64,000 nucleotides of DNA. Origin: Botryllus schlosseri. Its lineage: Eukaryota. The first letter of the stretch is position 1. Each line of letters starts with the position of its first letter. The notes under the pieces were generated by a model, which worked only from the letters and a program-made list of their open reading frames with translations, did not search any database and was not told where the DNA came from. Positions 3,871 through 30,731 of the stretch are shown piece by piece. A program made the position numbers and the translations under genes. The stretch is taken from contig CM119371.1 of assembly GCA_051294905.1 (NCBI GenBank), positions 8,744,001 to 8,808,000 on the forward strand. Direction: 5' to 3'.

Positions 3871-4264
3871 TGTCACGGTGGCTTTCAGCCCGTATTCTTC
3901 GGTTCGTTACACATGACTACCTCACAGAACGAGGCCAGGCATCGAGCGCACGTGGTCATTCTTTTGTCTGAGAACGTCGCACAGTTAACAGGGTGTTCAT
4001 ATTGCTCTTGCATTCTAATTGACATTATTGTAATTTCTCAGAGTATTGCCAGCGTATATTTTAAGGGTGTGTTATTGGACCAGACTGATTGACCTTGATT
4101 CTACAATACATCGTGACGGGGATATCATTGTGTCTGTAGTCTGGACTTATAGCAGTCAGTTGAAGATACTCGAAATCCGTCATTACTCGCACCGGTACTC
4201 TAGTCCGGCTCAAACTGAGCCGTTTCAATCCTGTGAACAATTGCTTTCGCAGTCCCACGGGACA
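3871..4264 (+). repeat. 5' LTR
   Basis: Direct repeat of 11219-11612. Only two differences seen (4051 A vs 11399 G; 4175 A vs 11523 G). Confidence 0.97.
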
Positions 4265-4301
4265 TAAAAGTTAAAAAATACGAGAGCTGACTGACATCGA
4301 T

Positions 4302-5963
4302 ATGGATACAACACTGCTAGCTGCTAGTCATCTGTTTTTGAGCAAGCAGTATATCGACCAAGTCCTCGAAAACTTCAGCGCCGCTTTCCTGAAAGTAGAG
4401 CGTGCTTTCCTTTCCTCTATCGAGAATGCTTCGCCCATCGAACACGTTGTCAAGTGCAGAGATGAACTAGAAGAACTCTGTGCTCAAGTCGCCACCGACT
4501 TGGACCGATTGATCGTAGGAGTTGAACAGGATCACGCCCTTCGAGATTCGATACCGCAAATAGAAAAGCTGTTAGTAACAGCTTCACGCGCACAGGTCAA
4601 TGCACGTCGCGCCTACCAATCCTACCAAGAAGGAAGCATGAACACTTCCTCCGAAGTCACCATCGACTACATTAATACCCAAACTTCGAAGAAACCATCA
4701 AGTCTTCATTCCGTCACGCCGTCCAGAACGTCAGCAACAGTCCGAAACGCTAGGCTGGCACTTGAAAGGATTAAACTGAGACAAGAACAGAGAAGAGCTA
4801 CAATCGATGCCGAATTTGAAGGTAGATTTGAGGTTCTCGAAGCCACCTCGAACTTGGAAGCCGCCGAGGAAGAAGCATCAATTGCCGGTTCTGTCGGATC
4901 ACGAGAGTCGATTATTTCCGACACTGAAAACATTGCTGTGAGTACTGAACCTTTGAATTTATCTGCAACTCACGCATCGTGGTTCGTTCCCTGGGGAACG
5001 CCAGCGTCTGCAACGGGCAGTAGCACTGGGCAGAGACTCGTTAACGAGCCGGCGGTAACCCAATCATTGACAACCAACCATCAGCCAACCGCACAAGCAA
5101 GTAGGGTAGAAGTCGCGCATGCTCTAATTCAAAACCCTAATCGTAACTGTCGTCCGTCCGTCAGTTTCGCAGCGGATACCTATAGTTACCAGTCTAGGGA
5201 GGTAGGTCCGCATTCCCAGCCTGTTCGTTCGCGTAGTCTAGATGCCGAGCCGGCCACTCCTTCATATCCTCGAAGCACTCCTCAGTGGCAGGGTGAACGG
5301 TTGGTCAATGAACATATCTCTTATCCTCGTAATACGCTCGCCGATATTCATCGTCGTCAAAACGATTTCATGCCTACTGCGCAAAATGATCTCATTCATC
5401 GTCCTCGCGGCCACTCCGCCGATATTCGTAATGTGCCGAATGCGCACACCGATCTTCGTTCTCGCAGTCAATCTGCCGATATTCGTTACATGCCGAACGC
5501 GCACACCTATGTTCGTTCTCATTTTCGCGGTCAATCAGCCGATATCCGTTACGTGCCAAATGTGCACACCGAGCTCAGTCCTCGTTCTCGCGGTCAACCC
5601 GCCGATATTCGTAACGTGCCGAACGCGCACACCGATCTTAGTTCTCATTTTCGCGGTCAACCCGCCGATATTCGTAATGTGCCGAACGCGCACACCGATC
5701 TTCGTTCTCATTTTCGCGGTCAACCCGCCGATATTCGTAATGTGCCGAACGCGCACACCGATCTTAGTTCTCATTCTCGCAACCGATTAGTGACTAGTTA
5801 CCGCCGCCCGGACGGTTTTTCGTTTTCCGAGCACGACGATTCTATTCCCCGGTATCGAGAGCAAGGAGATTTCGCGCTTTCTGGCTATAGTAATCCCGTG
5901 CATAACCGCAGTGTATCACTCCTGGCCCCTATCAACCGCGCGATTACGGTCCTTCCGTCCTAG
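4302..5963 (+). CDS. BEL/Pao Gag N-terminal part (coiled-coil region plus 21-aa tandem repeats)
   Basis: A 553-aa ORF starting 37 nt after the 5' LTR, with a helical E/R/A-rich segment. It overlaps the -1 frame of the downstream polyprotein at 5906-5963. Confidence 0.8.
   Translation: MDTTLLAASHLFLSKQYIDQVLENFSAAFLKVERAFLSSIENASPIEHVVKCRDELEELCAQVATDLDRLIVGVEQDHALRDSIPQIEKLLVTASRAQVNARRAYQSYQEGSMNTSSEVTIDYINTQTSKKPSSLHSVTPSRTSATVRNARLALERIKLRQEQRRATIDAEFEGRFEVLEATSNLEAAEEEASIAGSVGSRESIISDTENIAVSTEPLNLSATHASWFVPWGTPASATGSSTGQRLVNEPAVTQSLTTNHQPTAQASRVEVAHALIQNPNRNCRPSVSFAADTYSYQSREVGPHSQPVRSRSLDAEPATPSYPRSTPQWQGERLVNEHISYPRNTLADIHRRQNDFMPTAQNDLIHRPRGHSADIRNVPNAHTDLRSRSQSADIRYMPNAHTYVRSHFRGQSADIRYVPNVHTELSPRSRGQPADIRNVPNAHTDLSSHFRGQPADIRNVPNAHTDLRSHFRGQPADIRNVPNAHTDLSSHSRNRLVTSYRRPDGFSFSEHDDSIPRYREQGDFALSGYSNPVHNRSVSLLAPINRAITVLPS
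5406..5780 (+). repeat. coding minisatellite: 6 copies of a 63-bp (21-aa) unit RGQPADIRNVPNAHTDLxSHF (first unit 57 bp)
   Basis: Units start at 5406, 5463, 5526, 5589, 5652 and 5715. Confidence 0.95.
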
Positions 5964-8900
5964 TGACACCGGATAGCCCGGCGAACTATAATAACGATCC
6001 CTATCTTGCCTCGGTGAATTCCATGTTAGGCTCCATGAAGCGTAGCATGGACCTCAATACTGTTACAATTGCCAGTTTCGATGGCGACCCGCGAGATTAT
6101 TACCGGTTCATGAACGAATTCGATAGTGCCTTTGAACCCGTAAATGCCAATCCTAGTGAAAGACATGACGCCCGAACCAAGCTTAACAAGCTGATATCGT
6201 ACTGTACGGGCGACGCTAAATCCGCACTTGCTGGCTGCAGTGCTAATCGGTATGGCGAGGACGCATACTTACATGCCCGTAACGTCCTACATGATAGCTT
6301 TGGCCGAGACTCCTACGTTATTGACGCTTTCATTGATGAATTGACGCATAGTGGTGATGTTAACCCTAATGATAATCGTGAACTGGCTGCAGCATATGAT
6401 CAGCTTCGGTCGGCAAATCACATCCTCTCGCAACTTGGCGCAATGGCTCAAGTAAATGCACCGGCAGTCTCTGACGCAATAATGAAGCGTTTTCCACGCC
6501 ACTTCATACAAAAATTCTCGAGCAAGTATGAAGAAAAGATGGAAAACGGGTACGAGCCGCAGTTTGAAGATTTTGTTGCCTTTGTTGGTAGACAAGCTGG
6601 TACGTCAAGAACTCGACTTGGAAAATTCGTGTCGAGCATGCCGTTCGCCAGAGCTACCAAGTTTCCACCTCGAAAGACGCAAGTGAATGCAACGTCCGTC
6701 GATCGTCCCGTCGCTGTCTCCAACGAACCAAGACCACGCTCTGCACGTACGAAGCCAACGCCTCGCTGTCACCTCTGCGACGACTCGCACCCGCTCTACC
6801 AATGCGACCTCTTCCACCAGAAGACTCCAGCCGAACGCAAGAAGTTTGTAGAAGAAAAGCCGGTCTGTGTCAACTGCCTGGGCTACGGGCACGAAGCCCC
6901 TGCGTGCAAATCAGATCGTAAGTGCTACGTCAGCGGCTGCGGAGCGTCGCATCACACCCTACTTCATGGGGGCTTTCAAAATAAAATAACCGCAGATGTC
7001 AACACGATGTCGTCTTGGCTAAACGGGAAAGTAAATCCTGTGCGGTTATCTGTTGTACCGGTTATAATCACCTCCCCCGATTCAAATGTTAGAGTGGTCA
7101 CCAACGCATTCCTAGATCCAGGCTGTGGCCATGTTCTGTGCACACACCGGTTGCGTAAAAAATTAAATATGCAGGGTGACCGTATGGTTTGCGAAACGTC
7201 GACTGCAGGTGGCGTTTTCGAAGGGGAGGTAGAAGTGATTTCTCTTACTGTGCAAGCCCTTGATCAAAGCACAGTTATCGATATAAAAAATGTGCTCGCG
7301 ACTTCTCATTTTCCCGATGTGCAAAATCATACGCCAAATGTTGATACTATTTCTGAATGCGATCACCTCAGTCACATTAACATACCGGTCGCCAATACGA
7401 ATGATGTCGACCTCGTCCTAGGAAAAGATTTCCAAATGCAATACCCAAATACAGAAATCATTAAGCCCCAGAATGGTCTGCCTGGTGCCGAGCTCTCGGT
7501 TTTCGGTTGGTCCCTTGCTGGCGCCGACCGCACCCTTATCAAATCTGGCTTTCAGCCCAATAGTGTGAATTTTATCGATATGAATTTCGTGCATGCTGAG
7601 AATACCATTTTTAACCGATTTGATTCGCCAACGTTGCCAATTTGCTCTAGTTGTAACGCTGATTTTTCGGACGTTTGGGTTGATCCCTATGAATCGCAAA
7701 ATTCGATCGAAGACGAACAAGCGCTGTCGACTATGAAAGAAACCGCGCACATATTGAACGGCCGTTTCCGAGTCGGTCTTCCATGGAGAACGAAAGAAGT
7801 GAAGCTGCCATATAATCGTGGAGCTGCCGAGAAATCACTCGAAAACCAACGCTCGAAATTCCAGAAAGATCCTGAGTTCTTCCGCAAATATAAAGAAAAA
7901 ATCGACGAATACCTGTCTCGAGGCTATGCACAGGTAGTCCCGCCCGACCTACTTCCTGCATCCGAAAGGACTTTCTATCTCATCCATTTCCATACTCGAC
8001 AACAGAAGATGCGAATTGTATTTGACGCTAGCCGCAAATTCTCGGGCATCAGTTTGAACAGCCAACTGCTCAGCGGGCCTGACGTCAACTCTTCTCTAAT
8101 TGGAGTACTATGCCGTTTTCGTATGGGCAGGTACGCTTGGGTTGCCGATCTCGCCCAGATGTTCTCGAGAATTCAGACCTATCCGGAAGACTCTGATAGC
8201 CTACGCTTCCTCTGGTTTGAAGACAGCAGACTAGATGGAAAAGCGATCGATTATCAGATGACGTCTCATGTCTTCGGAAGCACGTCTTCACCATGCATTG
8301 CTCAGTTCTGTCTTCGTCAGATCGTTCTTTTGAACGGCACCAGTGCCGACAAGCCTACGCTTGACTGTATCTTGCGTAACACATATGTCGACGACATACT
8401 TCATTCCTCAGACGACCTTGGAACTGCGATCAAAGTCATCGAAGAGCTGCGAACGCTTTTCGCTCACTACGGTTTCAACCTTACTAAATTTGCTAGCGGC
8501 AGGACCGAGATCATGTCGCGGATTCCCGAAGACGCCCGTGCTGCCAACCTGGTGGATCTCGACTTCACGAACTCCGGTAAAGAAAGTACGTTGGGAGTTA
8601 TCTGGAACATGAATGAGGACTCACTTTGCGCCCGTACTAACATCAAACCTAAGCCTTTTACTCGAAGAGGCATCGCCAGCCAGATCGCTCAGATCTACAC
8701 TCCTTTCGGATATTCAAGCCCGTTCCTGTTACCGGCAAGACTGCTCCTGCAGGAAATATCTCGTAACGACCTGGATTGGGACACACCGATTGACGATAGT
8801 TTCAAAGCAAAATGGAAAAAATGGGTCGACTCACTCCCAGAACTCGAAAAACTATCATTTCCGAGATGCTACAAGCCGCCTGGTTTCTCGCCAGTGAATA

Positions 8901-10963
8901 TTCAGCTCCATGCATTTGCTGATGCCAGCACACATGGTTATTCTGCCTGTTGTTACTTCCGTTTTGAGGATCCTGATGGACAGGTTCACGTCTCTTTCGT
9001 CAGAGGAATCTCCAGAGTCGTGCCAAAGAATGCCCCAAGCATTTCCAGACTAGAAGTCACGGCTGCTGTAACCTGCACCAAACTTGCCAGAGACGTTATC
9101 AAAGATGTCGACTACAAGATCGACTCCGTCCACTACTGGACCGACAGTACCGCTGTACTCCAAAGCATTCGGAGTACTTCAGCTCGTTTCAACACCTTCG
9201 TACATCAAAGACTGCTTAAGATTCGCGCTCTGTCTTGTAACGACCAATGGTGCCACATCGACTCGGCAAATAACCCGGCTGATATTGGATCGCGTGGGCT
9301 GATGCCTCAGCAGTGGCAACGCGCAAAAATGTGGTTCGAAGGTCCCGACTTCCTACGCCAGTCCTTCGAATCGAGGTCTAGACATGAAAATGCACACCAA
9401 CCCGACACGCTAACGGAACCAGTGTTTTCGACTGACGTGTCGCCGACAGAAGTGTCGTTCAGGGACTACTTGCGCAGTTTCTCATCATTCACAAGTCTCG
9501 TTTGCTCGACCGCTTGGATTCTTCGGCTCCGTTCTATGCTGCGCTGGAAGATAAAAGGCTCTCCAACGGATCCGCTCCTCGAACCACGCTCTGGTTTCCT
9601 CACCGTTGAGGAGCTTGAGGAAGCGACAAGGGAAGTTGTCAGACTCGTCCAAGCCGAGTCATTTCCCGGTGCTGTCGAATCGCTTCGTGACAACGCGCGC
9701 GCCGACCATGTTCTCGTTAACAAAAAGCATGTTCCCAATTCATTGGCAAAGTTGATACCTTATGTATCTGATGGCGTCATGCGTGTCGAGGGTCGTCTGA
9801 ACCGCTCACAGCTACCCGATGACGCAAAAAATCCCATGATTTTACCGTCTAGTCACCATGTTACTCAATCGATTATTCGTCAATACCATGTGGCTAATGG
9901 TCATTGTGGCACCCTACAAGTTCTGTCCCTACTCCGTGAAAAATTTTGGGTCATGAAAGGACAAACTTCCATTCGCAAAGTCCTAAATAAATGTGTGTTC
10001 TGCCAATGCCGCCGGGCTAACCTAGGCTCCCAATACATGGCGGACCTCCCGCGTTACCGTCTTACACCACACAAGACTGTCTTCCATTATACAATGGTTG
10101 ACTATTTTGGTCCTTTGACCTGCAAACGTACTGAGCTTAAACGCTATGGTTGCGTATTTACCTGTTTATGTACTCGAGCCGTCCATTTGGAAGTAGTAGA
10201 TTCACTTGAAACTTCAGCCTTTTTGATGGCATTCTTCAAGTTCTGTGATATTCGGAATAGGCCCTCACACATGTTCAGTGATAATGGCACGACTTTCGTA
10301 GGTGCTCAAAAAGAGCTAGCTAAGGCGCTGGGAAATTTAAACTCTAAACAGGTTACCTCCTCCCTAGCAGACAGGGGTATCCAATGGCATTTCTCGCCCA
10401 GTCTTGCACCGCATTTCAATGGATGTGTTGAACGTGTCGTTGCTTTGTGTAAACGTACTCTGTGCGCTCTCAATAATGGTGCGGCCTTTCAGGATAATAC
10501 TTTATCTGCGTTGTTTTATGGAGTCGCTCGCATTTTGAACGATAGGCCCCTGACGCCCATTTCGGACGACCCAAATGACTTGCCGTGTCTGACTCCTAAC
10601 TCTATCATTCTGGGGAGTCTTGACACTTCTGTCCCGACTAATAAGTTCTGTAAAGCTGATGATTATGCAAAAAATTGGCGCTATGTCCAGCGTAAACTCG
10701 ATCTCTTTTGGGAGAGGTGGTTGAAAGAGTACCTACCCTTGCTGCAATCTCGTTCGAAGTGGCTCGATAAAACGCCCAATTTCAAAGTAGGGGATATCGT
10801 TCTGATGTCTGATTCCTCTGCACCCCGTGGTAAATGGCCGAAAGCCATAGTTGAACAAACATTTCCGGATGACCACGGGTTGGTTCGAAAAGTTACTGTG
10901 CGTACTCCCACTGGTACTTATAGTCGCGACATCCGCAAGTTGTGTCGTCTTGAGCTTGAATGA
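5963..10963 (+). CDS. BEL/Pao Gag(C-terminal)-Pol polyprotein: DUF1759-like capsid region, three Zn knuckles, aspartic protease, reverse transcriptase, RNase H, integrase
   Basis: FDGDPRDY; CHLCDDSHPLYQC, CVNCLGYGHEAPAC and CYVSGCGASHHTLLH; FLDPGC; ADLAQMF...YVDD; LHAFADAS...RLE...WTDS...NPAD; H-x4-H...CVFC; VDYFGP...SDNGT...VER. Confidence 0.95.
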   Translation: MTPDSPANYNNDPYLASVNSMLGSMKRSMDLNTVTIASFDGDPRDYYRFMNEFDSAFEPVNANPSERHDARTKLNKLISYCTGDAKSALAGCSANRYGEDAYLHARNVLHDSFGRDSYVIDAFIDELTHSGDVNPNDNRELAAAYDQLRSANHILSQLGAMAQVNAPAVSDAIMKRFPRHFIQKFSSKYEEKMENGYEPQFEDFVAFVGRQAGTSRTRLGKFVSSMPFARATKFPPRKTQVNATSVDRPVAVSNEPRPRSARTKPTPRCHLCDDSHPLYQCDLFHQKTPAERKKFVEEKPVCVNCLGYGHEAPACKSDRKCYVSGCGASHHTLLHGGFQNKITADVNTMSSWLNGKVNPVRLSVVPVIITSPDSNVRVVTNAFLDPGCGHVLCTHRLRKKLNMQGDRMVCETSTAGGVFEGEVEVISLTVQALDQSTVIDIKNVLATSHFPDVQNHTPNVDTISECDHLSHINIPVANTNDVDLVLGKDFQMQYPNTEIIKPQNGLPGAELSVFGWSLAGADRTLIKSGFQPNSVNFIDMNFVHAENTIFNRFDSPTLPICSSCNADFSDVWVDPYESQNSIEDEQALSTMKETAHILNGRFRVGLPWRTKEVKLPYNRGAAEKSLENQRSKFQKDPEFFRKYKEKIDEYLSRGYAQVVPPDLLPASERTFYLIHFHTRQQKMRIVFDASRKFSGISLNSQLLSGPDVNSSLIGVLCRFRMGRYAWVADLAQMFSRIQTYPEDSDSLRFLWFEDSRLDGKAIDYQMTSHVFGSTSSPCIAQFCLRQIVLLNGTSADKPTLDCILRNTYVDDILHSSDDLGTAIKVIEELRTLFAHYGFNLTKFASGRTEIMSRIPEDARAANLVDLDFTNSGKESTLGVIWNMNEDSLCARTNIKPKPFTRRGIASQIAQIYTPFGYSSPFLLPARLLLQEISRNDLDWDTPIDDSFKAKWKKWVDSLPELEKLSFPRCYKPPGFSPVNIQLHAFADASTHGYSACCYFRFEDPDGQVHVSFVRGISRVVPKNAPSISRLEVTAAVTCTKLARDVIKDVDYKIDSVHYWTDSTAVLQSIRSTSARFNTFVHQRLLKIRALSCNDQWCHIDSANNPADIGSRGLMPQQWQRAKMWFEGPDFLRQSFESRSRHENAHQPDTLTEPVFSTDVSPTEVSFRDYLRSFSSFTSLVCSTAWILRLRSMLRWKIKGSPTDPLLEPRSGFLTVEELEEATREVVRLVQAESFPGAVESLRDNARADHVLVNKKHVPNSLAKLIPYVSDGVMRVEGRLNRSQLPDDAKNPMILPSSHHVTQSIIRQYHVANGHCGTLQVLSLLREKFWVMKGQTSIRKVLNKCVFCQCRRANLGSQYMADLPRYRLTPHKTVFHYTMVDYFGPLTCKRTELKRYGCVFTCLCTRAVHLEVVDSLETSAFLMAFFKFCDIRNRPSHMFSDNGTTFVGAQKELAKALGNLNSKQVTSSLADRGIQWHFSPSLAPHFNGCVERVVALCKRTLCALNNGAAFQDNTLSALFYGVARILNDRPLTPISDDPNDLPCLTPNSIILGSLDTSVPTNKFCKADDYAKNWRYVQRKLDLFWERWLKEYLPLLQSRSKWLDKTPNFKVGDIVLMSDSSAPRGKWPKAIVEQTFPDDHGLVRKVTVRTPTGTYSRDIRKLCRLELE

Positions 10964-17914: not shown

Positions 17915-18794
17915 TAGGGCAATTTTTTTTTGACCTAAAAAACGGAAGATTTTGACCTAAAAAATTTAAATTTTGACGTTTTTTGACCTAAAAAAACTGA
18001 AATTTGACTAAATTTTGACCTCACGTATGCAAATTAGGTGTTTTCGCACATAATGTTAAAATTGTACTACTTATCTTCATTTCTGGTTGGAACTGTCTGT
18101 CCTTACAAAGTAGATTGGCCTGAAAAAACGTTTTTGGCTCAAAAACTGACAGATTTTTACATGAAAAACTAGTATTTTAACGAAATCTGGCCCTATGAAG
18201 AATACCTGTAGTTACATTACGTATTCTGGTGGAAATAATTAAAATTTGTTGTAGTACAACGAAAAATCCTTTTCTACATTCTCGGGTAGAAAGTGTCTGT
18301 CCTTACTACGTAGCTTGCCAAGAACGGAGAAAGAACGTTCATCAGCAGCATTTGTTGGCTGGCAACACTCAAGTTGTGTGCACACTGCTGGTGACAAACC
18401 GTGTTGCTTCATTCTGACAATGTTGTCTATATCACTATTTTTCAGCTTGCGCTTCTTGATATAAGAACCATGCAATGTCCAAGCAGTCTTGCTTCAGCTA
18501 GGATATTGCGGTACGTTGACCATAAAACCATGTCACTATTTGTTTCATTTGACCATTTATGATTCACAATGAGCAGACGATGGTCCGTTTACAACGGTAG
18601 GCCTATAAAGTAGGCTACAAGCTGTAAAATATCAAATGATAAGTTCACCGACAGCGCAAAATCTACGATACAAACGAAATGCAGAGGTCAAAAAATGTTT
18701 GACTTTGTAAACAATTTTGACAAATTTTGACCTAACGCTACAATTTTGACCTAATTTTGACTTTTTTTGACATGTCAAAAAAAAAATTGCCCTA
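17915..18794 (-). mobile_element. internally deleted hAT transposon retaining the transposase C-terminal dimerisation motif
   Basis: TIRs TAGGGCAATTTTTTTT/AAAAAAAATTGCCCTA, perfect TSD GTTATAGT, TTTTGAC subterminal repeats, and minus-strand CQPTNAADERSFSVLGKLRSKDRHFLPENVEK. An inverted partial copy is at ~63520-63700. Confidence 0.85.
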
Positions 18795-20112: not shown

Positions 20113-20188
20113 ATGGCTCAGGGAGGTCATGATATACCATTGGTCGATGAAAATGTCAGCTCTTCACAATTGCGTCTCGATCTGCCGA
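20113..20188 (+). CDS. NLR (NACHT-LRR) gene, putative coding exon 1 (MAQGGHDIPLVDENVSSSQLRLDLP)
   Basis: ACCATGG start context and donor GA|GTAAGT. Phase 1 matches the next exon. Confidence 0.6.
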
Positions 20189-21184: not shown

Positions 21185-21322
21185 AATCTGCATCACTGGC
21201 TGAAGGAGAATTTGTTTATCAGAATTTCACAAACAGCCCTGTTAACGTCGTGGCGGGAAATCTAACCCAGAAGTTCTATCAGACAACGAATGTCCACAAT
21301 GAAGCAAGTCCACCCAGTCAAG
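21185..21322 (+). CDS. NLR gene, putative exon 2 (N/Q/T/V-rich, amyloid-motif-like)
   Basis: Acceptor TTCTCGTACTCCAG|, donor AG|GTGAGT, 138 nt phase 1-1, open frame SASLAEGEFVYQNFTNSPVNVVAGNLTQKFYQTTNVHNEASPPSQ. Confidence 0.7.
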
Positions 21323-25874: not shown

Positions 25875-26492
25875 GTCTACAGCGATTAGGGCAGGTAATA
25901 TTTAATTGTGATTTCATTCTGAACATTTCGGTCTGCGCGTATTTCTTTGGATATTGACGAGTTATATGATTTCAGCTATTAAGGCACTCACCGTAACAAG
26001 ATATTCCTCTTAGTTTGCAGGGCGTGTAATTTCATAGCTCGAACATGTTTTCGCTCGCCTACCTGATTAGAATCTTCGGAAATTAGAGTGAACTCGAATC
26101 CGAGCAATCGAATGTTTCTACGATGCGTTGATGGAAACATATATCCATCGCTAAAGGGACACTGCGTTCCGGATATGATGTGGTCTCAAATTAAAGATAA
26201 AAGCAAAGATAACTATGTGGCTAGAGAAAAAGAAATAAAGGGATAGGCTGTTATTATACTTCTACCGTATGGTATCAATACGCATAGTTTGGTGAATTTT
26301 AATTTGTAATGCCCATCCAGTCGCATCTCCATCCCTCTTCCCGGGCCTGAAACTCAAACTGGTGGTTTTATGCCAAGGGCAACGGTATTATGAAATACAT
26401 CCAGCGAGAGTTGAAACATGATTGCGGGACCTGAGATGTAGCTACTTGATGGGGATGATATGAATTAACTCATGTAAATATCTGAATTGCAG

Positions 26493-27938
26493 CAGAATAT
26501 TCGGCGCTGATAAAAATCGTCAACGAAAATACGTTGGAAAAGACTCCCGATAATATCCTTGAATATTTCATGACCGAGGGTTTGTTCCTACCGGACTTCC
26601 AAGTTAACCCGCGCATGAGAAAAGTCGAAGCTGAAGATTACTTCAAAGGAAAATATGAGGATGTCGATGACATGAAGATAACTGTCAGGAAGCGGTCTTT
26701 GTTGTGCATGAAACGAAAGAAGGTCCTGAAAAATCAACTGAGAAAAGAAACAGCATTGCACAGACATGAATTTCATCCTGAGAATGCTCTGACATTAGAT
26801 CAGGTTTTCATGTCAATTGCTGGAAATAGTAATTCGGCCCACCGAATCGGCATTGTCGCGTCAGCAGGATCAGGCAAAACCACTCTCGTTCGCAGATTAG
26901 CGAGAAAATGCCTCGATGTAGCCGCCCGAACGCACGATGTCTCCCATGAAGTTGGACTCAAAATGATTCATTTCATTGAATTGAAAACCATACAGTACAC
27001 TAGTTCTGTGACACCATCAAAATTTCTTTTCGGTGGACTTTTCAAAAGTGAGGCAGATGAGATAAATGCTTACCATTGGTTGCAGAATAATCAGACAGAA
27101 GCAATTTTATATTTCGACGGTCTAGATCAGACTACATGGAAGATAGATCACAATAAAAATTACAATAAAATTAATCCCTTCTCCGAAGCTGACGCAGCAA
27201 CGATCATGAATAACATTCTCTCGGGCAATCTGCTTCCCCATACGAGAACCGTCTTCTCTTCACGCGAATTTATCGTATCAGAGTTACCGGCGGATGCAAG
27301 ACCTAGTGATATCATTACCCTCTCAGGAATGACACTGGATGACGCACAGAAGCTTTTTGTCTTTTTAATTGGAAAGGATGGCGCTGAAGCTTGGAATAAA
27401 ATTAGTATTATCTCACCTGGGCTACTGAACGTACTGTCTGTTCCGGTGTTTTTGATTTTAACCGCAATTTTATTTAAAAGAGATCCGAAAATACCACCTC
27501 CTACTACAGTTACTGAACTATATCAAAGAATCATTGCTGCTCTTGGAGGAGTCGAAAATGTCCGACAGCGGGACAAAATCCGCGAAATTGTAAAAAAACT
27601 GAAAGTGATGGCTTATCGGGGAATGAAAAAAGGACGAGTAGTATTTTACCAAGAGGATATGCGAAAGTTCGGTGTGTCTATAGAAGAAACTCAGGACTTG
27701 ATAATGAAGGTTCCCGGTAGCAAACTACTCAATCGACATTTATTAGAGGGTGACTTTAACTTCTTCTTCTGTCATCAAAGCATCCAAGAGTTCCTCGCGG
27801 CAAGCTTTATAGCTCATATGAACACTCGAAAATTTTCACAATTCAACGAAAAACATCTCCACGAGAAACGATGGTCGGTCGTTCGCATATTCGTTTCTGG
27901 GCTCGTTTACGACAAATCGGAAGACAATCTCCCTAAAG
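26493..27938 (+). CDS. NLR gene exon 3: NACHT NTPase plus helical/winged-helix domains
   Basis: Walker A GIVASAGSGKTT, Walker B AILYFDGLDQ, sensor-1 VFSSR, VPVF (GxP position) and winged-helix FFFCHQSIQEFLAA. Acceptor TTGCAGCAG, donor AAG|GTAAGT. Confidence 0.92.
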
Positions 27939-28591
27939 GTAAGTTGAAAATTGCAACGTCACTGCGGGCGTGCAAATGACCAAAGTCGGCAAACACCTTG
28001 AATACCAAAAAACAAACAAACCGACTTGAACGTTTGTTAGCGTACAACTAATCGCGCATAGGATAGCCTACATCTACAGCTAACAGAAATAAAACAAACG
28101 TTCCACTCCTCTGACGTAAGCGAGACGACTGGTCAAAGTGACCAATACTTCCAAGCCGTCAATGGCAGTTTGTAATAATCATATCCAAATTCGCAAGAGA
28201 CCTATCAATACCTCAATCCTCTCAACATGCATATATAAGAGAGGAGTAGCTAACAATGTATTTACGCTCGGGTGATCACAACAAAATTCTTGCAGTAGTT
28301 GAGCACATAAAATAGCATCGGCGGGATGATCAAGCGGGCGCTTAAATCAAAAGATATAGTCGAGCTAGTACTACGCGGACTGCACTGAAATGATCAAGTA
28401 TGATGAAGTTTGCATAACCGGTACTCGGTAACAATTGGAGACTGGTGGCGGGAGAACCCAACATCGTTCATGTGAGCTCCGAATAGGAGTTCAATTACTC
28501 AGTTCTAACCCTGCACAGCCCATGCAACGTAAATTTTTCTATCGCTGCGTTAACGATAAAGCAACAGACAATACTGCTAATTACATGACAG

Positions 28592-28890
28592 TGTCAAATC
28601 AAGCAAGGAAACAAGAAATTCTCGCTCGGTCGTTTCGTTCGATACTCGAAAAGAATGATGAAAACTGCATGGAGCTATATACAGCAATTTATGAAACAGA
28701 CGACGACGATCTCATAAAAAATATTTCCTTAATCAATGCTTCTTTTGTCTCATTGAGTCGCGATGAAGCTCATATAGTTGGATCGCTCACAGCAAAGATT
28801 GAAAGCCTTGATTCTCTGGATTTAGAGTACTGCAGTATTGACGATGACTGTATGGGGATAATCGCAAGATGTCTGAATGATCGTATTAAA
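28592..28890 (+). CDS. NLR gene exon 4: HD2 end and first LRR (LDSLDLEYCSIDDDCMGIIARCL)
   Basis: Acceptor CTAATTACATGACAG|, donor AAA|GTGAGT, phase 1 to 0, with an RI-like LRR pattern LxxLxLxxCxIxD. Confidence 0.82.
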
Positions 28891-29493
28891 GTGAGTCACA
28901 GTTTATTAAGTCATTGGTATTGCAGGAAAACTACATAGCGTGATATTTTAGATTTATAGAATCCATATCCGATGCGTTTTTCAAGGCGAGGCCTTGTAAC
29001 TTTTGTCATTGAATATTATTAAATCGTCACAGAACAGATTGTGATGAAGCAATATGAAACAGGGGACTCCAAACTCAATTGTGCCGACCAATTCGGGTTT
29101 TAGAGTGTGAACGAAACCGTTTTGCTCATTGACTGATATAGGACGAACTATATTCAAGAGAAATGGTCACATATCTCGAAATATATTAAATTACCAAAAA
29201 AAAACACCACATAGGTATTTCATGATTCGCTTGAGAAATATTGATAAGTATCGTATACTCTCGTATTCGCATGGATATATGTGTGCGTAGTTCTAAAATC
29301 TAAAACTACCCATGCATTATTGTTACATATTCGAATGTATGCTGGGTTATGAAATACAGTTATCCCGTCGGAGCGGCAACAGCACCGTCCTCGTTGGTGG
29401 TCTCCTGTGTCTACGAAATGGGCTGTCGCGTGCTACGTCAGAGTATTATATGTGTGGTAGTCAGGTTCGTTGAAAGAAAGATATACACACTAC

Positions 29494-30731
29494 CAGAGGT
29501 GGTAAAAGTAGGCAAGAAGGCTACTCAAGTAGAAGTAGAAGTAGCGAAGCAAAAATCTACTCAAGTACGACTAGAAGTACTCTTTCTAAAAGCAACCTAA
29601 AACTAATTGAGCTGGAAGTAAAATTTTCTGGCCTAAAATCTACTCAAGTAAGTAATTAGTTTTGACAACGGTCATAATACGTTCGCATGAGCTGTCAAAA
29701 GCTGCAAATTGAGCTATAAGGAAGGTGTAGAGAGCTTGATTCATATTGATGCTTCAAATGAGGTATCCAATTTTTGAGAGCATAAGCATTCCTCCGCATC
29801 ATCGGATGCAAAAGATATCGCTATGGACCCTAATGTTTGTTTACCCGAACACCTCGTTTTTAAGAACCTCATGGAGCGGCGACCTCACCCATATTATAAG
29901 AAGAGCAATACCAAGAAGCTGTATCGGTGCGAGATTGGTATACGCTAATCAAAAATGTAACGGGTCGTAAAAATGCCATACCATAGTGTAATTTTATTTT
30001 CAGAAAATAGAGGAATTGCTACACTTGCTTTTAAACTCCATCATGTAAGTTCTCCAGATCGAGACAAAGGAACTGAAACTATAATGATACTGCAAACTAA
30101 AAGAGAAATTCAAAAACTACTTCTAAAAAGCGGAAAATGTGTTACGTGATTCTTGTCTAGATAGCTACAGCAGTGGTCTGCTAAAACAGGTCTCATGCTC
30201 AAAAAGTCAGAGAACACTTTTGCAGATTATGACACGCCATGCTGGGCTGCTAGATTACGATATAATTGGTAAATGCTGGATTGTGAAACTGCTAGTTTCA
30301 AACGTTATGAAAGGCCATATTTACTGTGATGAACTGTTTCATATCGGCGACATGCGGTGTAAATGAAGGGAGCCACGCTACCGCCACCTAAATTATAGCC
30401 TATTCATAAATACTTTCATGTAAACATACTTGTCACTCCATATCTACTTTGCGCGAGGCGCGATGAAAATTCTGGACTTTACTTAATTTTAATGAAAATT
30501 AAATGCTGGTACAGCCCCAAAATTCCTCTGTATCTCTTTCAAATCGAAGGATTAAACTACTTCTACTTATTAAACTGAAAATAACAAAAAGTAAGTAAGT
30601 AGGTTACAAAATATTACGAATTTGAAGCAGAAGTAGCGGAAATGAGATTTAACTGATTAAGTACTACAAGTAGTGCAAAACTACTTGAGTACTTCGAAAA
30701 AGTAGAAGTACTTCATTACTGACCACCTCTG
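29494..30731. mobile_element. Tol2-like (hAT Ac-group) non-autonomous element
   Basis: Termini CAGAGGTGGTAAAAGTA.../...TACTGACCACCTCTG, perfect TSD CACACTAC, and AAGTA subterminal repeats as in Tol2. Confidence 0.85.

What the first reader, a model, noticed from the sequence alone, without database searches (positions are those of the whole stretch)
21185..21322. Animal NLR with no death domain but an exon-encoded RHIM/amyloid-signalling-like N-terminal motif
Seen: the reconstructed NACHT-LRR protein has only ~70 aa before the NACHT exon, with no room for a CARD, PYD, DD, DED or TIR. A separate symmetrical (phase 1-1) 138-nt exon encodes FVYQNFTNSPVNVVAGNLTQKFYQTTNVHN, rich in N/Q/T/V/aromatics with a central G and flanked by S/P-rich linkers. 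Established: fungal and bacterial NLRs signal through short N-terminal amyloid motifs (HET-s-related, PP, BASS) that template a partner effector. Metazoan RHIMs (RIPK1, RIPK3, ZBP1, TRIF) have the pattern hydrophobic-x-N-S-x-x-(V/I)Q(V/I)G-x-x-N. Inference: F-T-N-S-P-V-N-V-V-A-G-N resembles these with a non-canonical core (VVAG, one residue longer). This may be an amyloid-signalling NLR system in an invertebrate, with the motif on a shuffleable exon. The partner effector is not visible in this window.
Basis: partly seen in the sequence, partly recalled or inferred. Interest (0 to 1): 0.8.

Follow-up and report, generated by a model that had tools for sequence, protein, structure and literature searches.

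The report
Conserved N-terminal motif exon of NLRs
A small exon encodes a short, strand-like motif at the very start of well over a hundred paralogous NACHT immune-receptor genes that lack a death-fold domain; it resembles amyloid signalling motifs in position and style, but it is not a RHIM and no partner protein was found.

Summary
The exon is real at 21185-21322. It has an AG acceptor and a GTGAGT donor, is phase 1-1, and joins in frame to a 76-nt ATG exon (20113-20188) and to the NACHT exon (26493-27938). It is not a one-off. The genome holds about 150 open copies with the consensus SATLAEGENVNQxFxNSSVNVVAGDQ.

At least 62 of 88 strong copies lie 0.7-25 kb upstream of a NACHT exon on the same strand. 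One of 88 lies downstream of one. A conserved 76-nt MAEGG exon 1 precedes the motif exon in 11 of 13 loci inspected. Pooled dN/dS is 0.43 for the core and 0.61 for the tail. No Death or CARD exon accompanies the family.

So this is the standard N-terminal end of a large, death-fold-less NLR family. The RHIM reading fails its tests: the Pfam RHIM profile hits 0 of 25 copies, the genome has no RHIM above cut-off, and the G-phi-Q-phi-G core is absent. Amyloid-type signalling stays plausible (about 0.35) but unproven. No non-NLR carrier was found and AlphaFold shows no structure. RHIM-NACHT proteins in amphioxus (Kajava 2014) already set a precedent for the idea.

The parts
20113..20188 (+). Exon 1: ATG plus 25 codons (MAQGGHDIPLVDENVSSSQLRLDLP). 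It is 76 nt, with a GTAAGT donor in phase 1.
   Evidence: Read from the sequence. An equivalent 76-nt 'MAEGG(Q/R)D...' exon with a phase-1 GTAAGT or GTGAGT donor lies 245-1350 nt upstream of the motif exon in 11 of 13 paralogous loci inspected.
21185..21322 (+). Motif exon: 138 nt, phase 1-1. It encodes SASLAEGEFVYQNFTNSPVNVVAGNLTQKFYQTTNVHNEASPPSQ.
   Evidence: AG acceptor and GTGAGT donor. Own-genome searches find 115 and 147 open copies. Alignment A1 of 25 copies. Pooled dN/dS 0.51.
21196..21264 (+). Conserved core of the motif (LAEGEFVYQNFTNSPVNVVAGNL). The family consensus is LAEGENVNQxFxNSSVNVVAGDQ. This copy departs from it at four positions (F for N, Y for N, N for D, L for Q).
   Evidence: In A1, A2 and L4 are invariant, and A5, G7, E8, F14 and G24 are conserved in at least 90% of copies. 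Core dN/dS is 0.43 against 0.61 for the tail.
26493..27938 (+). NACHT exon. It has a phase-1 acceptor and a phase-1 donor (GTAAGT at 27939). It comprises about 115 conserved pre-P-loop residues, then NACHT, then a NOD2-type winged helix.
   Evidence: Splice sites read. Pfam: NACHT E 2.2e-13, NOD2_WH E 1e-5. The same genome holds 104 scored paralogous NACHT exons out of 215 candidates.
26495..26866 (+). Pre-NACHT region of unassigned fold (consensus SALIxxVNxNTxQKTxDxILEDF...PDFQVNPQMRKV...DYFKGNYE...). It ends at the P-loop GSGKT.
   Evidence: Conserved in 18 paralogues (A2), though some copies delete the middle third. No Pfam family covers it. The AlphaFold model has mean pLDDT 48.
28592..28890 (+). 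Next coding exon after the NACHT exon (boundaries inferred). It contains one LRR-like stretch (SLDSLDLEYCSIDDDCMGIIARCLN).
   Evidence: The acceptor ag| at 28590-91 and the GT at 28891 were read. Residues 52-153 of this ORF are conserved about 2 kb downstream of the NACHT exon in two paralogues (E 1e-30 and 1e-31). No LRR Pfam hit.

Best explanation
The exon encodes the standard N-terminal signalling end of a very large family of NACHT receptors (more than 200 loci) that carry no death-fold domain. The protein would start with a 25-residue acidic, S/P-rich leader. Next comes a core of about 27 residues built of short strand-like segments with alternating V/I/F and N/Q and a near-invariant glycine (ENVNQxF - NSS - VNVVAG - DQINVVYN). 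A variable S/P-rich linker then leads into the NACHT module.

My preferred mechanism is as follows. When the NACHT modules oligomerise, they bring many copies of this otherwise unstructured motif together. The motifs then assemble through beta-strand stacking into a homotypic, RHIM-like or amyloid-like nucleus. That nucleus passes the signal to an as yet unidentified protein carrying the same or a compatible motif.

Shown: the exon structure from the sequence, the family-wide linkage to NACHT exons, sequence constraint, and the absence of Death and CARD exons.

Inferred: inclusion of the exon in the mRNA, the beta assembly, and the existence of a partner.

The motif works like a RHIM or a fungal/bacterial amyloid signalling motif in position and style, but it is not a member of the RHIM family.
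For: - Canonical splice sites and in-frame phase 1 joins for exons 1, 2 and 3.
- All 115 and 147 matches have no internal stop.
- 60 of 88 strong copies have a same-strand NACHT exon within 25 kb downstream, against 1 of 88 upstream, and this used a NACHT list cut at 104 of 215 candidates. Two of three further 'orphans' fetched also have a NACHT exon, 2.5 and 6.7 kb downstream.
- A conserved 76-nt ATG exon lies just upstream in 11 of 13 loci, so the motif sits at about residues 27-55 of the protein.
- Constraint. Pooled dN/dS is 0.51 for the exon and 0.43 for the core. At 75-85% exon identity, 6 of the 8 flanking-intron comparisons no longer align.
- A copy from elsewhere (P0015) keeps the core but is at most 48% identical to anything in this genome, so the motif is not confined to this assembly.
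- No death fold. No death-fold family (Death, CARD, DED, PYRIN, TIR) among 110 upstream or intronic ORFs, whose only Pfam hits at E <= 0.01 were two unrelated sub-threshold ones, AHD and Casc1_C. A Death hit lies within 50 kb of 1 of 89 motif copies. None of the 5 CARD hits in the genome is near a motif copy.
- AlphaFold models the motif as non-globular: no secondary structure, mean pLDDT 61. This is what a motif that folds only on assembly would give.
- Tandem, splice-competent duplicates occur at one locus inspected, as with multi-RHIM proteins.
Against: - No test of amyloid or homotypic binding could be run.
- No non-NLR carrier of the motif turned up in about 150 genomic copies or among 1.84 billion representative proteins. 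There, 13 of 16 hits are short single-exon ORF calls and 3 are bacterial repeat proteins that match by chance.
- The RHIM profile and core are not matched, and no other Pfam amyloid-motif family is matched either.
- The best-conserved stretch includes the acidic LAEGE, which is unusual for an amyloid core.
- The difference in constraint between core and tail is modest and rests on 12 pairs.
- Close paralogues are about as alike in their introns as in the exon, so part of the conservation reflects recent duplication.
- The exon is symmetrical, so it could be skipped without breaking the frame.
Confidence: 0.35

Rival explanations
1. The motif is a short docking peptide, not an amyloid. It binds as one or two added beta strands to a folded domain of a common adaptor, an E3 ligase or a SUMO/ubiquitin-like module. 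All family members would thereby feed into one downstream pathway.
For: - The motif is short, unstructured as a monomer, family-wide and N-terminal.
- V-x-V-V flanked by acidic residues resembles SUMO-interaction-type strands (resemblance recalled, not tested).
- No second protein with the same motif was found, which suits a peptide-domain interaction better than a motif-motif one.
Against: About 27 residues are conserved, which is more than a typical linear docking motif needs. The N/Q ladder-like alternation and the invariant G are not explained. No candidate partner domain was identified.
Confidence: 0.3
2. The N-terminal tail acts in cis. It would be an autoinhibitory or stability element (a lid on the NACHT module, or a degron) rather than the output end of the receptor.
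For: It is directly followed by a conserved pre-NACHT region of unknown fold that it could contact. No partner was found.
Against: NLR N-termini in all well-studied groups are output modules (established knowledge). The variable-length S/P linker between motif and NACHT suits a tethered, exposed motif. No structural support: both AlphaFold models are of low confidence.
Confidence: 0.15
3. The peptide has no specific function. It would be a leader or linker whose similarity among copies only reflects the recent origin of the gene family.
For: Pairs of copies above 88% exon identity are about equally alike in the flanking introns. Pooled dN/dS of 0.51 is only moderate constraint.
Against: The frame is open in all 115 and 147 copies. 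The core persists in copies whose NACHT exons are only 53-57% identical. It also persists in a sequence not encoded by this genome. At 75-85% exon identity most flanking-intron comparisons no longer align (6 of 8).
Confidence: 0.1
4. In this gene, or generally, the exon is not part of the mature mRNA. It would be skipped, alternative, or a relic.
For: The exon is symmetrical, so exon 1 can join the NACHT exon directly in frame. Relic copies exist. One tandem copy has lost its donor. Several copies have neither an exon 1 nor a NACHT exon nearby. The window's copy departs from the consensus at four core positions.
Against: Intact AG and GT sites and an open frame here and in most copies. The order exon 1, motif exon, NACHT exon is conserved. 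Purifying selection acts on the coding frame.
Confidence: 0.1

Closest known systems
RHIM (RIP homotypic interaction motif; Pfam PF12721), including the RHIM-NACHT-repeat proteins reported in Branchiostoma floridae (Kajava et al. 2014, PMC4262963; passages read)
   Same: A short, non-globular motif rich in N, Q, V, I and G, flanked by disordered regions. It sits where a death-fold domain would normally sit on an invertebrate NACHT protein and is sometimes present in tandem copies. There is a local likeness: N-[SC]-x-[VI]-N-[VI]-V-A-G-D here against N-[SC]-x-G-[VI]-Q-[VI]-G-D in RIP kinases (the RIP kinase pattern is recalled, not taken from a call).
   Different: It fails the RHIM profile (0 of 25 copies at E <= 10; no genomic hit on a motif exon). 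It lacks the G-phi-Q-phi-G core: the first G is missing, N replaces Q, and two residues are inserted before the G. It has an extra conserved acidic LAEGE segment. Figure 1 of Kajava et al., with the divergent amphioxus RHIMs, is not held, so a direct comparison with those was not possible.
NLR-associated amyloid signalling motifs of fungi and multicellular bacteria (HRAM/HET-s, sigma, PP, BASS families)
   Same: The position at the extreme N-terminus of a NACHT-type NLR, a length of 20-40 residues, conserved G and N/Q with alternating hydrophobic residues, and a disordered linker to the NOD module.
   Different: The defining second half is missing: no effector protein carrying the same motif was found, whether adjacent or elsewhere. 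The host is an animal and the motif lies on its own exon. The family has well over 100 receptors sharing one motif type, rather than one receptor paired with one effector. No sequence match to any Pfam amyloid-motif family.
[quoted passage not shown] 81 of 126 bona fide NLRs in the sponge Dysidea avara (PMC12909245; abstract and passages read)
   Same: A large, clustered, lineage-specific expansion of NACHT receptors with no Death or CARD domain at the N-terminus.
   Different: The passages returned by my term search of that paper describe NLRX as mainly lacking an identified N-terminal domain. The word 'motif' does not occur in its main text, and its supplementary tables were not opened. Here the N-terminus carries a conserved motif on a dedicated exon. 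That genome is a different one (575 Mb, 15 chromosomes).
MADA motif of plant CC-NLRs (Adachi et al. 2019; seen only as a reference-list entry in PMC7889193, otherwise recalled)
   Same: A short N-terminal motif shared across many NLR paralogues that serves as the output end.
   Different: MADA is part of an alpha helix of a folded coiled-coil domain that forms a membrane funnel. The present motif is strand-like and non-globular, and there is no sequence relation.

Membership tests
RHIM (Pfam PF12721) | Match to the RHIM profile at or above the curated cut-off (20 bits) | tested here: not met
   hmmscan of 25 motif copies against all of Pfam-A at E <= 10 gave RHIM in 0 of 25. A six-frame search of the whole genome with PF12721 gave 3 hits, the best at 17.7 bits. 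None lies on a motif exon and all sit in stop-rich, non-coding-looking sequence.
RHIM (Pfam PF12721) | Central G-phi-Q-phi-G / (I/V)-Q-(I/V)-G core | tested here: not met
   The core definition comes from a passage in PMC7885112. The family consensus here is S-S-V-N-V-V-A-G-D-Q. The first G is absent, N stands in place of Q, and two residues precede the G.
RHIM (Pfam PF12721) | Forms homo- or hetero-amyloid with other RHIMs | not testable with these tools
The motif profile matches no solved RHIM chain or any other PDB chain at E <= 10.
NLR-associated amyloid signalling motifs (fungal/bacterial type) | Short motif at the extreme N-terminus of an NLR, followed by a linker and the NOD module | tested here: met
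   Exon 1 (25 aa), then the motif exon, then the NACHT exon, in frame. The same order holds in paralogues. The linker is variable in length and S/P-rich.
NLR-associated amyloid signalling motifs (fungal/bacterial type) | The same motif on a separate effector protein (templating partner) | tested here: inconclusive
   None was found. All genomic copies lie in short exon-sized frames. Eight 'orphan' loci were inspected: two have a NACHT exon further downstream, and six show no other domain within 9-18 kb. A neighbouring NHL-repeat gene on contig C8 has its own ATG and a phase-2 first acceptor. The search of 1.84 billion representatives found no long protein carrying the motif. No annotated proteome of this organism was available and divergent motifs could be missed.
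NLR-associated amyloid signalling motifs (fungal/bacterial type) | Amyloid or prion behaviour of the motif | not testable with these tools
   The AlphaFold monomer model shows no secondary structure (mean pLDDT 61), which neither supports nor refutes it.
Animal NLR (NACHT-LRR) | NACHT NTPase with P-loop and a NOD2-type winged helix | tested here: met
   Pfam NACHT E 2.2e-13 (50.8 bits, cut-off 26.7). NOD2_WH scores 26.0 bits (cut-off 23.1). GSGKT is present. The nearest ESM Atlas clusters are all NACHT families.
Animal NLR (NACHT-LRR) | C-terminal leucine-rich repeats | tested here: inconclusive
   No LRR family in 0 of 73 downstream + strand ORFs at E <= 0.1. Two LRR-like stretches are seen by eye. 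Short LRR exons are hard for Pfam to score one at a time.
Death-fold NLRs (NLRD / NLRC) | N-terminal Death, CARD, DED or Pyrin domain | tested here: not met
   No death-fold family (Death, CARD, DED, PYRIN, TIR) among 110 + strand ORFs of at least 35 aa between 11000 and 26490; the only Pfam hits at E <= 0.01 were two unrelated sub-threshold ones, AHD and Casc1_C. A Death hit lies within 50 kb of 1 of 89 motif copies. None of the 5 genomic CARD hits is near a motif copy. The 115-residue pre-NACHT region gave no confident fold, so a very divergent helical domain there is not excluded.

The most novel reading that the evidence does not exclude
This is a second, RHIM-independent family of amyloid (prion-like) signalling motifs in animals. 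It would serve as the common output module of a receptor family of more than 100 members, and it is carried on a symmetrical exon that can be duplicated or shuffled. If so, NLR-to-effector amyloid templating, so far shown in fungi and predicted in multicellular bacteria, would also operate in an invertebrate immune repertoire.
Probability: 0.25. Interest if true: 0.85.

Novelty: new variant of a known kind. Interest (0 to 1): 0.55.

Why it matters
Large invertebrate NLR expansions are mostly filed as 'NLRX', meaning no recognisable N-terminal domain. That leaves open how they signal. Here the N-terminus is not empty: it carries a conserved, dedicated motif exon.

[quoted passage not shown] This motif is a concrete, easily synthesised candidate for testing that question.

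If instead it is an ordinary docking peptide, it still marks a single handle by which well over a hundred receptors could be connected to one downstream pathway. It could also serve as a bait to find that pathway.

Tried and rejected
- RNA evidence. No indexed RNA holder of the stretch was listed. Expression and splicing therefore remain untested.
- Complex prediction of four motif copies.
- Word-index protein searches. The motif profile against longer proteins gave only two short single-exon ORFs. The NACHT exon against longer proteins gave nothing at 1e-10, because candidates were crowded out. At similar lengths it gave 13 unnamed NACHT ORFs. None gave a full-length architecture or an organism name.
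- ESM Atlas on the motif. The best score was 0.79, below the level of a lead.
- Earlier findings of this scan. Nothing for this genome or sequence.
- Motif-NHL fusion on contig C8, considered and rejected. Four motif exons are each followed 4-8 kb downstream by a closely related NHL-repeat gene. However, the NHL gene has its own in-frame ATG and a phase-2 first acceptor that cannot take the phase-1 motif exon directly. No exon 1 lies upstream. The four loci are recent segmental duplicates, so they count as one event.
- Pre-NACHT region as a hidden death fold. There is no Pfam hit, the model is of low confidence, and the middle third is deleted in some paralogues. This is not supported but not excluded.
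- Organism identity. No mitochondrial COX1 is in the assembly. The nearest Atlas cluster is cnidarian, which is only a hint.
- Literature. Searching the motif strings in full text gave no relevant paper.
- Profile-profile comparison with RHIM, PP or BASS3 alignments. Not run, because it would have needed sequences that no tool gave me.

Full report
**The observation.** The stretch 21185-21322 on the + strand is bounded by ctccag| and |gtgagt. In frame 21187 it reads SASLAEGEFVYQNFTNSPVNVVAGNLTQKFYQTTNVHNEASPPSQ. It is 138 nt long and phase 1 at both ends. About 1 kb upstream, a 76-nt exon opens with ATG at 20113 (MAQGGHDIPLVDENVSSSQLRLDLP) and ends at a phase-1 GTAAGT donor. About 5 kb downstream, the long open frame 26486-27979 has a cag| acceptor, so the exon starts at 26493 in phase 1. 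It ends at a phase-1 GTAAGT donor at 27939. Exons 1, 2 and 3 therefore join in frame, and so do exons 1 and 3 if the symmetrical exon 2 is skipped. The long exon holds a NACHT domain (Pfam E 2.2e-13) and a NOD2-type winged helix.

Three caveats apply.
- I could not see RNA.
- The 71 residues before the NACHT exon indeed leave no room for a death fold. However, the NACHT exon itself begins with about 115 conserved residues of unassigned fold before the P-loop.
- LRRs were not confirmed by Pfam in 73 downstream ORFs. One further coding exon after the NACHT exon is conserved in paralogues.

**The exon is one of about 150.** Searching the window's own 495-Mb genome with the 45-residue peptide gave 115 matches, none with an internal stop. 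A copy closer to the family consensus gave 147. Aligning 25 copies gives the consensus SATLAEGENVNQxFxNSSVNVVAGxQxNxVYNxTxxEGEAxPxSQ. A2 and L4 are invariant, and A5, G7, E8, F14 and G24 are conserved in at least 90% of copies. Length variation is confined to the part after the G-D-Q. The window's copy is an atypical member: F and Y replace two N, and N-L replaces D-Q.

**It belongs to NACHT genes.** The NACHT exon has at least 215 candidate paralogues. Of these, 104 were scored and all had E < 1e-117. Among 88 strong motif copies, 60 have a same-strand NACHT exon 0.7-23 kb downstream, and 1 has one upstream. Of the 104 NACHT exons, 56 have a motif exon upstream.

Because the NACHT list was cut short, I fetched DNA downstream of three further 'orphans'. 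Two have a NACHT exon, 2.5 and 6.7 kb downstream. The true fraction is therefore higher than 60 of 88.

In 11 of 13 loci inspected, a 76-nt exon starting MAEGG(Q/R)D with a phase-1 GTAAGT or GTGAGT donor lies 245-1350 nt upstream of the motif exon. The motif is thus the second exon and sits at about residues 27-55 of the protein throughout the family.

**It is under constraint, moderately.** I took twelve disjoint nearest-neighbour pairs.
- Very recent pairs are as alike in their introns as in the exon.
- At 75-85% exon identity, 6 of the 8 flanking-intron comparisons no longer align.
- Pooled Nei-Gojobori estimates give dN/dS 0.51 for the exon, 0.43 for residues 1-27 and 0.61 for the rest.

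It is not met, but the margin is modest.

An exhaustive HMMER search of 1.84 billion representative proteins with the motif profile found 16 hits at E <= 0.001. Thirteen are short ORF calls that contain the motif between intron-like flanks. Three are bacterial repeat proteins that match by chance. One of the thirteen (P0015) is at most 48% identical to anything in this genome. The motif therefore exists beyond this assembly, with LAEG[ED]...N[CS]xVxxVAGDQI retained.

**No death fold goes with it.**
- No death-fold family was found in 110 + strand ORFs between 11 kb and the NACHT exon. The only Pfam hits at E <= 0.01 were two unrelated sub-threshold ones, AHD and Casc1_C.
- Of 111 Death-domain hits in the genome, one lies within 50 kb of any of 89 motif copies.
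- The genome has only 5 CARD hits, none near a motif copy.
- The pre-NACHT region is conserved in 18 paralogues, but some delete its middle third. AlphaFold gives it no confident fold (mean pLDDT 48). A hidden, very divergent helical domain is not excluded, but nothing supports one.

**Is it a RHIM? No, by every test I could run.**
- hmmscan of 25 copies against all of Pfam-A at E <= 10 finds no RHIM, HET-s, sigma or other amyloid-motif family. Only four unrelated families appear, each in a single copy.
- The Pfam RHIM model run over the six-frame genome gives three sub-threshold hits in non-coding-looking sequence, none on a motif exon.
- The motif profile matches no PDB chain at E <= 10.
- The core shared by RHIM and the fungal PP motif is given as G-phi-Q-phi-G (PMC7885112, passage read). 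Here the corresponding stretch is S-V-N-V-V-A-G.

A local likeness to RIP kinase RHIMs remains: N-[SC]-x-...-V-x-V-..-G-D. That pattern is recalled from memory and is a lead only. I could not compare with the divergent amphioxus RHIMs of Kajava et al., because their Figure 1 is not held.

**Does it work like an amyloid signalling motif?** In favour:
- the position at the extreme N-terminus of a NACHT receptor;
- the length;
- the alternation of V/I/F with N/Q;
- the near-invariant glycine;
- the disordered, length-variable flanks;
- a non-globular AlphaFold model (no secondary structure, mean pLDDT 61);
- tandem duplication of the exon. Four same-strand pairs within 6 kb occur among the 88 strong copies. 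One pair with a weaker copy was inspected, and both of its copies keep AG/GT sites in phase 1-1. In another pair the second copy has lost its donor.

Against:
- The defining second half of such systems, the same motif on an effector, was not found. All genomic copies lie in exon-sized frames.
- Six orphan loci show no other domain within 9-18 kb.
- The one suggestive case does not hold up. Four motif exons on contig C8 are each followed by an NHL-repeat gene. But that gene has its own ATG and a phase-2 first acceptor. No exon 1 precedes the motif exon there. The four loci are one recent segmental duplication.
- The conserved acidic LAEGE is also unusual for an amyloid core.

**Verdict on mechanism.** What is firm: this is the conserved, exon-encoded N-terminal end of a very large death-fold-less NACHT family. 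It is almost certainly the family's interaction or output module. I favour clustering-induced beta-strand assembly of a RHIM-like or amyloid-like kind at about 0.35. A non-amyloid docking peptide follows at about 0.30. A cis-regulatory tail, a functionless leader and a non-included exon share the rest.

**Comparison and novelty.** The concept is not new. Kajava et al. 2014 (PMC4262963, passages read) described RHIM motifs occupying the place of death-fold domains in Branchiostoma proteins, including a RHIM-NACHT-repeat architecture, with subsets in other invertebrates. Fungal and bacterial NLRs with N-terminal amyloid motifs are well documented (listings and passages).

What appears new is this particular motif family. 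My full-text search for its strings found nothing relevant, and Pfam, PDB and the ESM Atlas do not know it. Its scale also appears new: well over a hundred receptors share one motif on a dedicated symmetrical exon.

Surveys of invertebrate NLRs file such genes as 'NLRX'. In the Dysidea avara paper, the passages returned by my term search describe these as mainly lacking an identified N-terminal domain, and the word 'motif' does not occur in its main text; its supplementary tables were not opened (PMC12909245, abstract and passages).

[quoted passage not shown] This motif is a testable candidate answer. I rate it a new variant of a known kind, of moderate to good interest. The interest depends on experiments that are simple to do.

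**Organism.** It was not established. It is an animal by its NLR type. The nearest ESM Atlas cluster to the NACHT exon is cnidarian. No mitochondrial COX1 is present in the assembly.

Noticed in passing
window 4275-10963 (+): Two long open frames (562 aa and 1685 aa). The 1685-aa frame contains zinc-knuckle-like Cys/His clusters by eye, and the pair looks like an intact LTR retrotransposon; this was read by eye and not scanned against Pfam. It lies upstream of the NLR gene and the region has higher G+C (0.48-0.50).
   Followed up: no
G000 genome-wide, e.g. C4:20656892(+)/20667428(-), C5:25440527(-)/25450416(+), C12:17220158(-)/17243607(+): Death-domain exons of about 100 aa with identical scores occur as opposite-strand pairs 5-25 kb apart at many loci. 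There are 33 such pairs among 111 hits. The pattern suggests a repeated unit, possibly a mobile element or inverted duplication, that carries a Death-domain ORF at both ends.
   Followed up: partly
G000:C8:3861738-3881737 (L039/L040) and three sister loci at C8:3.92, 3.97 and 4.01 Mb: Four tandem segmental duplicates (85-90% nucleotide identity). Each holds an orphan copy of the NLR motif exon, with no exon 1 and no NACHT exon within 18 kb. Each also holds, 4-8 kb downstream, a compact NHL-repeat gene with introns of about 50 nt and its own ATG. The NHL family is itself very large (210 candidates).
   Followed up: yes
G000:C14:48766-49317 (+): CARD (E 2.3e-6) and Death (E 4.7e-8) hits lie next to each other in one 204-aa open frame. 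This looks like a CARD-Death adaptor of the RAIDD type (the name is recalled). The genome has only 5 CARD hits in all.
   Followed up: no
window 18177-18302 (-) and 29474-29656 (+); L039:3754-4017 and 4047-4334: Short repeated elements recur in the introns of the NLR gene and in unrelated loci. Their translated signatures are ...STRECRK..VVLQQILIIST.IR.VTTGILH... and ...SRSRSSEAKIYSSTTRSTLSKSNLK... They are probably dispersed non-autonomous repeats.
   Followed up: no
G000:C16:1194845, 1220946, 1825349, 1931697 and C5:1397787 (NACHT exons closest to the window's, 68-71% identical): No motif exon upstream of these five closest paralogues appears in the lists. One of them has a weak Death hit 26 kb upstream on the same strand (C16:1959124, E 1.2e-4). 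Their N-termini may differ from the rest of the family.
   Followed up: no
P0008, P0012, P0016: Bacterial or other long repeat proteins with recurring '...T(V/I)NVVAGDDIIN...' or 'NSTVNLAAGENITC' segments match the motif profile at E 2e-8 to 3e-4. I take this to be chance convergence of strand-like repeats, not homology.
   Followed up: partly
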